DNA of 64,000 bases from Escherichia coli (GTDB lineage: Bacteria > Pseudomonadota > Gammaproteobacteria > Enterobacterales > Enterobacteriaceae), in NCBI RefSeq assembly GCF_003334405.1, contig NZ_QOWM01000005.1; one strand, written 5' to 3'. Position numbers and translations under genes: made by a program. Positions within the stretch are counted from its first letter, which is position 1, and each line of letters begins with the position of its first letter. Below, in pieces: positions 61,416 to 61,810 of the stretch. The notes under the pieces are model-generated. The model ran no database searches. It was not told the DNA's origin and saw nothing but the letters and a program-made list of their open reading frames with translations.

Positions 61416-61433
61416 TTGTATTGTGATCGGTAA

Positions 61434-61810
61434 GCCGGATAAGGCGCTCGCGCCGCATCCGGCAACGGTGCCAGATGCCTGATGCGACGCTTGCGCGTCT
61501 TATCAGGCCTACAAATTCCCGCACCCTCCGTAGGCCGGATAAGGCGTTTACGCCGCATCCGGCAACGGTGCCGACTGCCTGATGCGACGCTTGCGCGTCT
61601 TATCAGGCCTACAAATTCCCGCACCCTCCGTAGGCCGGATAAGGCGTTTACGCCGCATCCGGCAACGGTGCCGACTGCCTGATGCGACGCTTGCGCGTCT
61701 TATCAGGCCTACAAATTCCCGCACCCTCCGTAGGCCGGATAAGGCGTTTACGCCGCATCCGGCAACAGTGCCGACTGCCTGATGCGACGCTCGCGCGTCT
61801 TATCAGGCCG
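61434..61810. repeat. Tandem array (~3.75 copies) of a ~100-bp BIME unit, each unit holding two REP palindromes in opposite orientation
   Basis: Exact 100-bp periodicity read directly; six-frame ORFs 61482..61682 and 61582..61782 have identical translations. Confidence 0.9.

What the first reader, a model, noticed from the sequence alone, without database searches (positions are those of the whole stretch)
61420..61810. Tandem ~100-bp BIME array between phnA and phnB
About 3.75 nearly identical 100-bp units, each holding two REP palindromes in opposite orientation, are repeated head-to-tail, so that two six-frame ORFs a unit apart translate identically. Such arrays vary in copy number between strains and can affect mRNA stability and DNA gyrase or IHF binding.
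Basis: seen in the sequence. Interest (0 to 1): 0.3.

Follow-up and report, generated by a model that had tools for sequence, protein, structure and literature searches.

The report
Known REP325 palindrome array, four-unit allele
The 100-bp tandem repeat between phnA (now yjdM) and phnB (now yjdN) is real, but it is the well-studied E. coli REP325 / naRNA4 palindrome array, here as a four-unit allele of a locus that carries one to seven units in different strains, so it is ordinary and already described.

Summary
Window 61430-61809 holds 3.8 head-to-tail copies of a 100-bp unit (97% matches). Each unit is a Y REP, an 11-nt spacer, an inverted Z2 REP and a 17-nt C-rich linker, giving eight hairpins in all. 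It lies between yjdM (phnA) and yjdN (phnB).

This is a BIME-2 array and is specifically REP325, the source locus of Rfam family naRNA4 (all four units score 95-111 bits). MG1655 has six units here.

In two systematic samples of complete E. coli genomes (118 in total), the locus had one pair in 59%, two in 12%, three in 2%, four in 5%, five in 7%, six in 14% and seven in 1%. Changes are always whole 100-bp steps between fixed boundaries.

The best-supported function comes from a 2026 preprint on the six-unit allele. The RNA hairpin array stabilises yjdM mRNA and attenuates read-through into yjdN, partly through Rho. The older claim that it condenses the nucleoid with HU is now disputed by its own originating lab.

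The array has no IHF site, T-tract terminator or plausible gene. Gyrase binding is plausible for the class but untested here. Novelty: already known. Interest is low.

The parts
60984..61012 (+). Promoter-like site upstream of yjdM (CCGACA, 17 nt, TATAAT). It is the candidate start of the yjdM-array-yjdN transcript.
   Evidence: Consensus scan, 10 of 12 matches. Consensus match only. Qian 2015 infers transcription of the array from the yjdM promoter.
61080..61415 (+). yjdM (formerly phnA), 111-aa zinc-ribbon protein, stop codon TGA at 61413-61415.
   Evidence: ORF listing, RefSeq annotation of identical loci and tblastn relatives.
61416..61429 (+). 14-nt unique spacer TTGTATTGTGATCG between the yjdM stop codon and the first REP. 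It forms the fixed left boundary of the array in every E. coli allele examined except the divergent species-representative genome (L024).
61430..61529 (+). Unit 1 (variant v1). Y REP 61430-61464 with a degenerate foot (GTAA instead of GTAG) and loop CTCG. Spacer 61465-61475 (ACGGTGCCAGA). Inverted Z2 REP 61476-61512. C-rich linker 61513-61529 (AAATTCCCGCACCCTCC).
   Evidence: Rfam naRNA4 scores 95 bits at 61433-61509.
61530..61629 (+). Unit 2 (variant v2, identical to the MG1655 naRNA2/naRNA4 unit). Y REP 61530-61564, spacer 61565-61575 (ACGGTGCCGAC), inverted Z2 REP 61576-61612, linker 61613-61629.
   Evidence: Rfam naRNA4 scores 111 bits at 61533-61609. The predicted fold is two hairpins at -42.8 kcal/mol, z = -4.8.
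61630..61729 (+). Unit 3, an exact copy of unit 2 (v2). Position 61666 is C here and T in the otherwise identical four-unit allele of WG1, W3110-P and C600-p2-V.
   Evidence: Rfam naRNA4 scores 111 bits.
61730..61809 (+). Unit 4 (terminal variant v3, 80 nt). Y REP 61730-61764, spacer 61765-61775 (ACAGTGCCGAC), inverted Z2 REP 61776-61809. This Z2 has lost its CTAC foot (CAGGCC|GCC), and no linker follows it.
   Evidence: Rfam naRNA4 scores 106.7 bits.
61810..61872 (+). 63-nt unique leader of yjdN, forming the fixed right boundary of the array. It contains a block (AACTACACTTAACTGG...CTTAACTGAGGT) conserved across enterobacterial genera. No promoter-like site was found in it.
61873..62316 (+). 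yjdN (formerly phnB), 147-aa VOC-family protein. It is the gene whose transcription the array attenuates in MG1655.
   Evidence: Function of the array from bioRxiv 10.64898/2026.03.23.713779.

Best explanation
This is REP325, a BIME-2-type array of alternating Y and Z2 repetitive extragenic palindromes in the spacer of the yjdM-yjdN (phnA-phnB) operon. The window carries a four-unit, eight-hairpin allele.

How it most likely works:
- The array is transcribed from the yjdM promoter as part of the mRNA.
- Each REP folds into a stable RNA hairpin.
- The row of hairpins blocks 3'-to-5' decay and so protects the upstream yjdM message.
- It also makes transcription stop or be cut short before yjdN, partly with the help of Rho.
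- The result is that yjdM is expressed far above yjdN.

The number of units changes by in-register unequal recombination or replication slippage between the near-identical 100-bp repeats. That explains why strains differ in exact 100-bp steps.

Basis of each step:
- Shown here: the anatomy, the allele series, and the absence of alternative signals.
- Shown in the literature, for the six-unit MG1655 allele only: the stabiliser and attenuator effect.
- Inferred: that the four-unit allele behaves the same way, perhaps with a weaker Rho component.
- Inferred: that the C-rich, G-poor 17-nt linkers (9 C, 1 G) between hairpin pairs are where Rho loads.

The confidence value refers to the mechanism. 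The identity as REP325 / BIME-2 is close to certain.
For: Identity:
- All four units match Rfam RF02564 naRNA4 at 95-111 bits on the + strand (gathering score 59.5). The - strand scores 53-55 bits, below threshold.
- The MG1655 and W3110 reference records have the same array with six units between yjdM and yjdN.
- Qian 2015 describes it as six Y-l-Z2 repeats joined by U motifs and transcribed from the yjdM side.

Anatomy:
- Y and Z2 REPs alternate in orientation.
- The predicted RNA folds well: -222 kcal/mol for 476 nt, z = -9.4, with two hairpins per unit.
- There is no run of 4 or more T and no terminator-like site inside the array.
- No promoter-like site lies between the array and yjdN.

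Function (MG1655, bioRxiv 10.64898/2026.03.23.713779):
- Deleting REP325 drops the yjdM/yjdN mRNA ratio from about 35 to about 1.
- yjdN rises 8- to 10-fold and yjdM falls.
- REP325 RNA appears as a ladder of hairpin-sized species.
- Bicyclomycin raises read-through from 23% to 39%, and only with the full 12-hairpin array.

Comparative support found here:
- The yjdM-yjdN pair is kept in E. albertii, Citrobacter, Enterobacter, Leclercia, Kluyvera, Pseudocitrobacter and Cedecea.
- Every one of those spacers (80-242 nt) holds a strong hairpin.
- Each species uses its own REP type, and C. werkmanii and Enterobacter sp. Bisph1 have a canonical GC stem plus T run.

Copy-number mechanism:
- 21 sequenced alleles share the same boundaries and differ by whole units.
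- They form a series: v1-v3; v1-v2-v3; v1-v2-v2-v3 (window); v1-v2-v5-v3; v1-v2-v4-v2-v5-v3 (MG1655); v1-v2-v4-v2-v5-v5-v3.
- Hybrid units exist (v6 and v18 are reciprocal mosaics of v1 and v2), as expected from in-register crossovers.
- All 13 variable positions among 15 internal unit variants lie outside the 48 stem positions.
Against: - The functional evidence is a single unreviewed preprint on the six-unit allele. No one has measured an eight-hairpin allele. In that study, 2- and 4-hairpin fragments showed no bicyclomycin sensitivity, so the Rho component may be weak or absent here.
- The same preprint found stabilisation of yjdM only when yjdN was present, so the effect depends on context.
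- The role of the linker as a Rho loading site is my inference. The array as a whole has only a mild C excess (132 C, 106 G).
- The lack of variation in stems could reflect recent common ancestry and gene conversion among units rather than selection. The unit variants are not independent samples.
- An earlier peer-reviewed paper assigns the locus a different role (nucleoid condensation with HU).
- About 59% of sampled E. coli carry only one REP pair with no linker. A long array is therefore not required by the species.
Confidence: 0.7

Rival explanations
1. Nucleoid organiser. The units are genes for nucleoid-associated RNAs (naRNA1-6). Together with HU, these RNAs bridge cruciform-forming REP DNA around the chromosome and condense the nucleoid.
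For: Rfam files each unit as naRNA4. Qian et al. 2015 (PMC4550694) reported four things: HU co-purification, enlarged nucleoids after REP325 deletion, rescue by plasmid-borne naRNA4, and REP-REP contacts dependent on HU and REP325. Harris et al. confirm that HU binds naRNA4 in vitro with a Kd of about 32 nM.
Against: A follow-up that includes the original senior author (bioRxiv 10.64898/2026.03.23.713779) found the following:
- no stable HU-cruciform-naRNA4 complex;
- no change in nucleoid volume on deletion or overexpression;
- no REP-REP contact pattern in Hi-C;
- about 1-2 REP325 RNA copies per cell.
In my samples most E. coli strains have a single pair at this locus, and lab K-12 stocks differ (4 versus 6 units) with no known phenotype.
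Confidence: 0.08
2. DNA-level element. The array acts as double-stranded DNA, as a strong transcription-independent gyrase site or a supercoil barrier between the yjdM and phn transcription units.
For: The array meets the BIME-2 definition. Gyrase cleavage sites are over-represented in a subset of BIME-2 elements, mostly in Y REPs, and rise when transcription is blocked (PMC6379681).
Against: Only a subset of BIME-2 elements are cleaved. The loci named in that paper are sucC-sucB and tldD-yhdP. The supplements held here contain no entry for yjdM, yjdN, phnA or REP325. This role would not exclude the RNA-level role.
Confidence: 0.15
3. Selfish or neutral repeat. The array is a REP doublet that was tandemly amplified and now drifts in copy number with no function of its own. 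The expression effects are side effects of inserting any stable hairpins.
For: - Copy number ranges from 1 to 7, with the single pair the commonest state.
- Multi-unit arrays sit on both K-12-like and distant flanks with different unit variants: MRE162, DG343-1, M171-1, TUM20902.
- The 17-nt linker is found only in this array.
- The linker aligns with the unique 3' flank of the single pair in Pseudocitrobacter faecalis (AACCTCCCGCCCCCTC versus AAATTCCCGCACCCTC). This indicates a plain segmental duplication of REP pair plus flank.
Against: A hairpin or terminator is present in this spacer in every genus examined, so something at this position is kept. Deletion in MG1655 changes growth and the yjdM/yjdN ratio. 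The two views are compatible: a hairpin is needed, while the number of units may be nearly neutral.
Confidence: 0.2
4. Assembly artefact in copy number. The true array in the source strain is longer (for example six units, as in MG1655) and was collapsed to 3.8 units during assembly.
For: The flanks are K-12-like. An 8-kb stretch matches WG1, W3110-P and C600-p2-V with a single mismatch. The reference MG1655 and W3110 records have six units, while W3110-P has four; EC600 has six while C600-p2-V has four. The window's exact allele occurs in only 2 complete genomes. Identical 100-bp units are a classic cause of collapse.
Against: Four-unit alleles occur in many independent complete assemblies, including natural isolates. 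Loss of 200 bp between the identical units 2 and 4 of MG1655 gives exactly the WG1-type allele, so a real deletion is equally simple. The periodicity and architecture are unaffected either way.
Confidence: 0.1
5. Protein-coding repeats or an IHF-binding BIME-1 (RIP) element.
For: Several 56-66-aa ORFs run through the array, and two of them are identical. PGAP once annotated a frameshifted 'hypothetical protein' pseudogene inside a six-unit array.
Against: - The unit length (100) is not a multiple of 3, so each ORF changes frame from unit to unit.
- The ORFs appear and vanish with unit number, and 20 of 21 RefSeq annotations call nothing there.
- No IHF consensus is present with up to 1 mismatch.
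- The linkers are 11 and 17 nt, not the long L linker of BIME-1.
Confidence: 0.01

Closest known systems
REP325 / naRNA1-6 of E. coli K-12 MG1655 (Rfam RF02564 naRNA4, also called CssrE)
   Same: Same locus (yjdM-yjdN spacer), same boundaries, same Y, 11-nt spacer, Z2 and 17-nt linker units. Units 2 and 3 of the window are identical to the MG1655 naRNA2/naRNA4 unit.
   Different: The window has four units (v1-v2-v2-v3) where MG1655 has six (v1-v2-v4-v2-v5-v3). It lacks the v4 and v5 variants. It cannot be derived from the MG1655 allele by one deletion, and it differs by one base (61666) from the four-unit WG1/W3110-P allele.
BIME-2 family of bacterial interspersed mosaic elements (Gilson, Bachellier, Hofnung; summarised in PMC3333891)
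   Same: Alternating y and z2 REPs, short linkers, multiple tandem copies, extragenic position, and copy number that varies among strains at a given locus.
   Different: The 17-nt linker is specific to this locus. It occurs nowhere else in the 64-kb window, and the junction is in none of about 100,000 species-representative genomes. It looks like captured ancestral flank. The two outermost REPs have lost the GTAG/CTAC foot.
BIME-1 / RIP (RIB) elements that bind IHF
   Same: Both are pairs of inverted REPs at 3' ends of genes.
   Different: BIME-1 is a single copy of y plus z1 with a long conserved L linker that carries the IHF site. This array has z2, short linkers and no IHF consensus. Two REP pairs with roughly 36-nt linkers elsewhere in the window (13216-13316, 14517-14610) look like that type.
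REP hairpins as 3' mRNA stabilisers and partial Rho-dependent attenuators (for example the malE-malF REP; Espeli, Moulin and Boccard 2001 on BIME-associated attenuation, as cited in PMC4550694)
   Same: The mechanism proposed here is the same: RNA hairpins that block exonucleases and attenuate transcription without a T tract. The malE-malF example is from my own knowledge and was not checked here.
   Different: This locus has many hairpins in series, and the same element has been shown to do both jobs in MG1655.
Rho-independent terminators in the orthologous yjdM-yjdN spacer of Citrobacter werkmanii and Enterobacter sp. Bisph1
   Same: Same position between the same two genes, with a strong GC hairpin.
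   Different: Those have a 13-bp stem followed by a T run. The E. coli array has no T run.
REPIN / RAYT (TnpA-REP) systems
   Same: Inverted REP doublets with a 5' GTAG foot. The internal REPs here keep GTAG/CTAC. Ton-Hoang et al. suggest the transposase could drive BIME recombination and amplification. A 2024 preprint says REP325 was predicted to be a RAYT-associated REPIN.
   Different: No RAYT gene was sought or seen near the array. The allele patterns are explained by homologous in-register exchange without needing a transposase.

Membership tests
BIME-2 | Built from y-type and z2-type REPs in alternating orientation | tested here: met
   blastn-short with Y and Z2 probes (written from this array's own unit-2 REPs) finds Y on the + strand at 61434/61530/61630/61730 and Z2 on the - strand at 61476/61576/61676/61776, at 90-100% identity. 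Because the probes come from the array, this shows the alternation and orientation; the y and z2 type labels rest on recalled consensus and on Qian 2015. Inverted-repeat arms are listed. Definition taken from PMC3333891.
BIME-2 | Multiple tandem copies at one locus, well conserved within the locus | tested here: met
   3.8 copies at 97% matches. Units 2 and 3 are identical.
BIME-2 | Short linkers, with no long L linker and no IHF site | tested here: met
   The linkers are 11 and 17 nt. No WATCAANNNNTTR match with up to 1 mismatch in 61416-61872.
BIME-2 | Extragenic location | tested here: met
   The array lies wholly between the yjdM stop codon (61415) and the yjdN start (61873).
BIME-2 | Number of tandem copies varies among strains | tested here: met
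   1 to 7 units in 118 sampled genomes, checked by sequence in 21 loci.
BIME-2 | Bound and cleaved by DNA gyrase | not testable with these tools
   This is a class-level result and applies only to a subset (PMC6379681). The held supplements have no entry for this locus.
Rfam RF02564 naRNA4 (REP325 RNA) | Covariance-model score at or above the gathering threshold (59.5 bits) | tested here: met
   95, 111, 111 and 106.7 bits on the + strand. The model was built from this very locus, so this shows identity rather than independent support for function.
Rfam RF02564 naRNA4 (REP325 RNA) | Lies in the yjdM-yjdN spacer and is transcribed in the yjdM-to-yjdN direction | tested here: met
   Position confirmed. 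The strand preference of the model agrees (+ 95-111 bits versus - 53-55 bits). Transcription itself is known only from the MG1655 literature.
Rfam RF02564 naRNA4 (REP325 RNA) | RNA binds HU and condenses the nucleoid | not testable with these tools
   HU binding in vitro was reported in both papers. Nucleoid condensation was reported in 2015 and not reproduced in 2026.
BIME-1 / RIP (IHF-binding) | Single y-L-z1 copy whose L linker carries an IHF consensus | tested here: not met
   The element is a tandem array with z2 rather than z1 and short linkers. No IHF consensus was found.
Rho-independent terminator | GC-rich stem-loop followed directly by a T run | tested here: not met
   No terminator-like site lies inside 61416-61872. 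There is no run of 4 or more T in the array.
Rho-dependent attenuator | C-rich, G-poor unstructured RNA upstream of the stop points, and sensitivity to bicyclomycin | tested here: inconclusive
   The 17-nt linkers have 9 C and 1 G, but the whole array has only 132 C against 106 G. Bicyclomycin sensitivity is shown only for the 12-hairpin MG1655 array and not for 2-4 hairpins.
REPIN / RAYT system | REP with a 5' GTAG foot recognised by a cognate RAYT transposase encoded in the genome | tested here: inconclusive
   GTAG/CTAC is intact in the six internal REPs. It is degenerate at the two outer ends: GTAA at 61430 and CAGGCC|GCC at 61809. The RAYT gene was not sought; I expect it outside this window, but I did not check.

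The most novel reading that the evidence does not exclude
Unit number at this locus works as a fast-mutating, heritable dial for the yjdM:yjdN expression ratio. Each added unit contributes two exonuclease-blocking hairpins and one C-rich linker that helps Rho to load. On this reading the common single-pair allele (no linker) only stabilises yjdM, while long alleles also shut off yjdN. The 200-bp difference between laboratory K-12 stocks (MG1655, W3110 and EC600 with six units; WG1, W3110-P and C600-p2-V with four) would then be a real, recurrent and phenotypically relevant change, not an assembly error.
Probability: 0.2. Interest if true: 0.4.

Novelty: already known. Interest (0 to 1): 0.15.

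Why it matters
Little changes for biology at large. The element, its family, its variability and two proposed functions are all in the literature.

Three points are useful in practice:
- The six-unit MG1655 allele used as "the model REP" is not typical. About 59% of sampled complete E. coli genomes carry a single REP pair here, and even K-12 stocks differ. Results on REP325 length effects, including Rho dependence seen only with 12 hairpins, therefore cannot be transferred to other strains without checking the allele.
- The array is a likely site of assembly collapse and of spurious ORF calls.
- The "unknown" U motif of the 2015 paper appears to be ancestral flanking sequence captured when a REP pair plus flank was duplicated. 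This points to ordinary segmental duplication and unequal exchange, rather than repeated REP insertion, as the origin of the array.

Tried and rejected
- IHF binding: no consensus with 0 or 1 mismatch in the array or its flanks. Rejected.
- Intrinsic terminator: no T run and no terminator-like site in the array. Rejected.
- A separate yjdN promoter between array and gene: none by the consensus scan. Not supported, although the scan is crude.
- Coding potential of the repeated ORFs: rejected. The unit length is not a multiple of 3, the ORFs depend on unit number, and annotation is almost uniformly silent.
- Is the 17-nt linker a generic BIME-2 motif? An exact-pattern scan for CCTACAAATTCCCGCACCNTCCGTAGG in about 100,000 species-representative genomes found nothing. 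Within the window it occurs only in the array, even with 3 mismatches allowed. It is therefore locus-specific. The scan needs an exact match, so diverged copies would be missed.
- Conserved RNA structure in the yjdN leader: RNAalifold gave essentially none (-1.26 kcal/mol, 4 pairs).
- Covariation in the REP stems: not attempted, because no stem position varies among the unit variants. Invariant pairs say nothing either way about structure.
- Gyrase data for this locus: nothing in the held supplements of PMC6379681. No supplements are held for PMC3333891.
- Prior use of the locus as a tandem-repeat marker: a full-text search for yjdM / yjdN / 'tandem repeat' found only the REP325 papers and unrelated work.
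- Technical failures: a fuzzy-regex REP scan timed out and was replaced by blastn-short. One related-loci run failed on an off-by-one coordinate and was repeated.
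Full report
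**1. The observation**

Tandem Repeats Finder reports a single array in 60000-64000. It spans 61430-61809 with period 100, 3.8 copies, 97% matches, no indels and score 702.

A self-comparison of 61300-61900 gives 100/100 identical bases at offset 100, 99/100 at offset 200 and 78/100 at offset 300. No other offset exceeds 43/100.

Units start at 61430, 61530, 61630 and 61730.
- Units 2 and 3 are identical.
- Unit 1 differs from unit 2 at seven positions: the fourth base of the REP foot, three loop bases and three spacer bases.
- Unit 4 differs from unit 3 at two positions, and the repeat stops at 61809.

**2. Anatomy**

Each unit has four parts:
- a 35-nt palindrome, GTAGGCCGGATAAGGCGTTTACGCCGCATCCGGCA;
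- an 11-nt spacer, ACGGTGCCGAC;
- a 37-nt palindrome in the opposite orientation, TGCCTGATGCGACGCTTGCGCGTCTTATCAGGCCTAC;
- a 17-nt linker, AAATTCCCGCACCCTCC.

The palindromes match the E. coli Y and Z2 REP types, with Y on the + strand and Z2 on the - strand. That makes eight REPs in all.

The six internal REPs keep the GTAG/CTAC foot. The first one reads GTAA, and the last one has lost CTAC.

The array sits 14 nt after the TGA stop codon of a 111-aa gene (61080-61415) and 63 nt before a 147-aa gene (61873-62316), both on the + strand. RefSeq names them yjdM and yjdN. These are the former phnA and phnB, and phnC follows at 62449.

**3. What it is**

Rfam assigns all four units to RF02564, naRNA4 (nucleoid-associated noncoding RNA 4). 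Scores are 95-111 bits on the + strand against a gathering score of 59.5. The - strand scores 53-55 bits.

That family was defined from REP325 of MG1655. Qian et al. 2015 describe REP325 as six Y-l-Z2 repeats joined by 'U motifs', lying between yjdM (phnA) and yjdN (phnB) and apparently transcribed from the yjdM promoter (PMC4550694).

The MG1655 and W3110 reference records carry a 657-nt spacer with six units at this position.

By the definitions summarised by Ton-Hoang et al., this is BIME-2: y plus z2, short linkers and multiple tandem copies. [quoted passage not shown]

The window therefore holds a four-unit allele of a named, studied element.

**4. Copy number across E. coli**

I searched the 5,426 complete RefSeq genomes with queries made of the two flanks only, and read the array length from the span of each hit. 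Two systematic 'spread' samples gave 59 usable genomes each.

| Units | Genomes (of 118) | Share |
|---|---|---|
| 1 pair | 70 | 59% |
| 2 | 14 | 12% |
| 3 | 2 | 2% |
| 4 | 6 | 5% |
| 5 | 8 | 7% |
| 6 | 17 | 14% |
| 7 | 1 | 1% |

Laboratory K-12 derivatives inflate the six-unit class.

I fetched 21 alleles and split them into units. All of them share the same left boundary (14 nt after the stop codon) and the same right boundary, and they differ by whole units.

On K-12-like flanks the alleles form a series:
- v1-v3
- v1-v2-v3
- v1-v2-v2-v3 (the window)
- v1-v2-v5-v3 (WG1, W3110-P, C600-p2-V)
- v1-v2-v21-v3
- v6-v4-v2-v5-v3
- v1-v2-v4-v2-v5-v3 (MG1655, W3110, EC600, strain 30088, strain N921)
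- v1-v2-v4-v2-v5-v5-v3 (strain 8GC)

Units v6 and v18 are reciprocal mosaics of v1 and v2. Long arrays with other unit variants occur on more distant flanks (MRE162, M171-1, DG343-1, TUM20902). Expansion has therefore probably happened more than once, or arrays have been exchanged between lineages.

This pattern is what in-register unequal exchange or replication slippage between 100-bp repeats would produce.

The window's exact allele was found at 100% identity in only two complete genomes. It differs from the WG1-type allele by one base (C rather than T at 61666).

Loss of 200 bp between the identical units 2 and 4 of MG1655 yields exactly the WG1-type allele. K-12 stocks differ in this way: reference W3110 has six units and W3110-P has four, while EC600 has six and C600-p2-V has four. 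These could be real recurrent deletions or assembly collapses. I cannot tell which without reads.

**5. Origin of the unit**

The 17-nt linker occurs only inside the array within the 64-kb window, even with three mismatches allowed (3 matches against 0.18 expected). The Z2-linker-Y junction is absent from all species-representative genomes in the genome collection.

The yjdM-yjdN pair is conserved in several enterobacterial genera. In Pseudocitrobacter faecalis the spacer has one Y-Z2 pair followed by AACCTCCCGCCCCCTC and then ATCTGTACAAA. This aligns with the E. coli linker AAATTCCCGCACCCTC and then with the unique yjdN leader.

The 'U motif' is therefore most simply old flanking sequence that was duplicated together with the REP pair. 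The array grew by segmental duplication, not by repeated REP insertion. This is an inference from one alignment.

**6. How it most likely works**

Sequence-level facts from this window:
- The RNA is predicted to fold strongly: -222 kcal/mol for 476 nt, z = -9.4. A single unit gives two hairpins at -42.8 kcal/mol.
- There is no run of four or more T and no terminator-like site in the array.
- No promoter-like site lies between the array and yjdN.
- One promoter-like site lies upstream of yjdM, at 60984-61012.

Experimental facts, all for the six-unit MG1655 allele, come from Harris et al. 2026 (bioRxiv 10.64898/2026.03.23.713779):
- Deletion of REP325 lowers the yjdM/yjdN mRNA ratio from about 35 to about 1.
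- yjdN rises 8- to 10-fold and yjdM falls.
- REP325 RNA appears as a ladder of hairpin-sized species.
- Bicyclomycin raises read-through from 23% to 39% for the 12-hairpin array, but has no effect on 2- or 4-hairpin fragments.

My comparative data fit a conserved need for a 3'-end or attenuation signal at this spot. Every orthologous spacer examined has a strong hairpin, each of the species' own REP type. C. werkmanii and Enterobacter sp. Bisph1 have a textbook terminator with a 13-bp stem and a T run.

I therefore favour the RNA-level 'stabiliser plus attenuator' model for the window's allele. There are two explicit inferences:
- that eight hairpins behave like twelve, perhaps with less Rho dependence;
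- that the C-rich, G-poor linkers (9 C, 1 G) are where Rho engages. That would explain why Rho dependence appears only in long arrays.

All 13 variable positions among 15 internal unit variants fall outside the 48 stem positions (hypergeometric P about 9e-5). This is weak evidence, because the units are recent copies that probably homogenise one another.

**7. Rivals**

- **Nucleoid condensation with HU.** This is contradicted by the 2026 study, which includes the same senior author. It found no ternary complex, no change in nucleoid volume, no REP-REP Hi-C pattern, and about 1-2 RNA copies per cell.
- **Gyrase binding.** This is a documented property of a subset of BIME-2 elements but is untested here.
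- **Neutral drift of unit number.** This is compatible with everything I saw and may hold alongside a requirement for at least one hairpin pair.
- **IHF binding, an intrinsic terminator, or coding ORFs.** All are rejected.

**8. Verdict**

The feature is already known in detail.

The small increments from this check are:
- a locus-level census showing that the single pair, not the six-unit model allele, is the common state;
- the allele series and the differences among K-12 stocks;
- the likely flank origin of the linker;
- a minor correction to the 2015 paper, which calls the five MG1655 linkers identical: the third one reads CCATCC, not CCCTCC.

Interest is low.

Noticed in passing
window 61815-61872, and the same position in L025-L038: A roughly 45-nt block just upstream of yjdN (AACTACACTTAACTGG...CTTAACTGAGGT) is nearly invariant across Escherichia, Citrobacter, Enterobacter, Leclercia, Kluyvera, Pseudocitrobacter and Cedecea, while the rest of the spacer is replaced. 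RNAalifold finds no conserved structure and the consensus scan finds no sigma-70 promoter. It could be a regulator site or an unusual promoter for yjdN.
   Followed up: partly
window 62318-62341: A GC-rich perfect hairpin (GGGAGG CCCG CCCTCCC) lies right after the yjdN stop codon, with no T run on the + strand. It sits just upstream of the phnC promoter region (CTGTCATCG..., Pho-box-like by eye).
   Followed up: no
window 13216-13316 and 14517-14610: Two further REP pairs with long (about 36-nt) linkers, of a BIME-1-like layout, lie in opposite orientation on either side of a 289-aa ORF (13579-14448). The second linker has a one-mismatch IHF-like site at 14564-14576. This contrasts with the phnA-phnB array, which has none.
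   Followed up: partly
window 42904-42938: A solitary, diverged Y-type REP (89% identity to the probe) on the - strand.
   Followed up: no
window 55602-55767 (-): Rfam STnc630 scores 181.8 bits. The matched RNA contains the start of a small ORF (AUGAAAAACCGUGUUUAUGAA...) at the position where the W3110 record annotates pmrR, between proP and pmrB.
   Followed up: partly
window 10956-11002 (-) and 25187-25259 (+): A guanidine-II (mini-ykkC) riboswitch hit (50.4 bits) and a tRNA gene (68.3 bits). Both look like ordinary annotated features of this chromosomal region.
   Followed up: no
L013 687-1037 (-), E. coli strain 30088: PGAP annotated a frameshifted, incomplete 'hypothetical protein' pseudogene inside a six-unit array. 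This is an example of a spurious ORF call caused by the repeat.
   Followed up: yes
L023 (USCO01000113.1, labelled 'uncultured Clostridiales bacterium'): This contig encodes a 100%-identical YjdM followed by the E. coli single-pair REP sequence, and it ends inside the Z2 REP. It looks like E. coli sequence mis-binned into a Clostridiales MAG, with the assembly breaking at the REP.
   Followed up: partly
L024 1132-1373 (E. coli SCPM-O-B-8794, species-representative genome): A divergent two-unit allele (242-nt spacer). Its left flank and first Y REP resemble E. albertii, and its linker is diverged (CAATTCCAGTACCAACCCACA). This suggests an older or independent duplication of the pair plus flank.
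   Followed up: partly
L014 (strain N921), hits H91 and H143, and L015 (strain Br_112_kylling): Insertion sequences and islands occur around the locus. IS1 lies upstream of yjdM in N921 and ET846. IS903B lies within or next to yjdM in 23AR0151. In Br_112_kylling, yjdM and the 5' part of yjdN are replaced by sequence adjoining iha. None of these insertions is inside the REP array itself.
   Followed up: partly
L001, L103, L104 (MG1655 and W3110 references): The third of the five linkers in the six-unit K-12 allele reads AAATTCCCGCACCATCC, one base different from the other four. Qian et al. 2015 describe the five U motifs as identical.
   Followed up: yes
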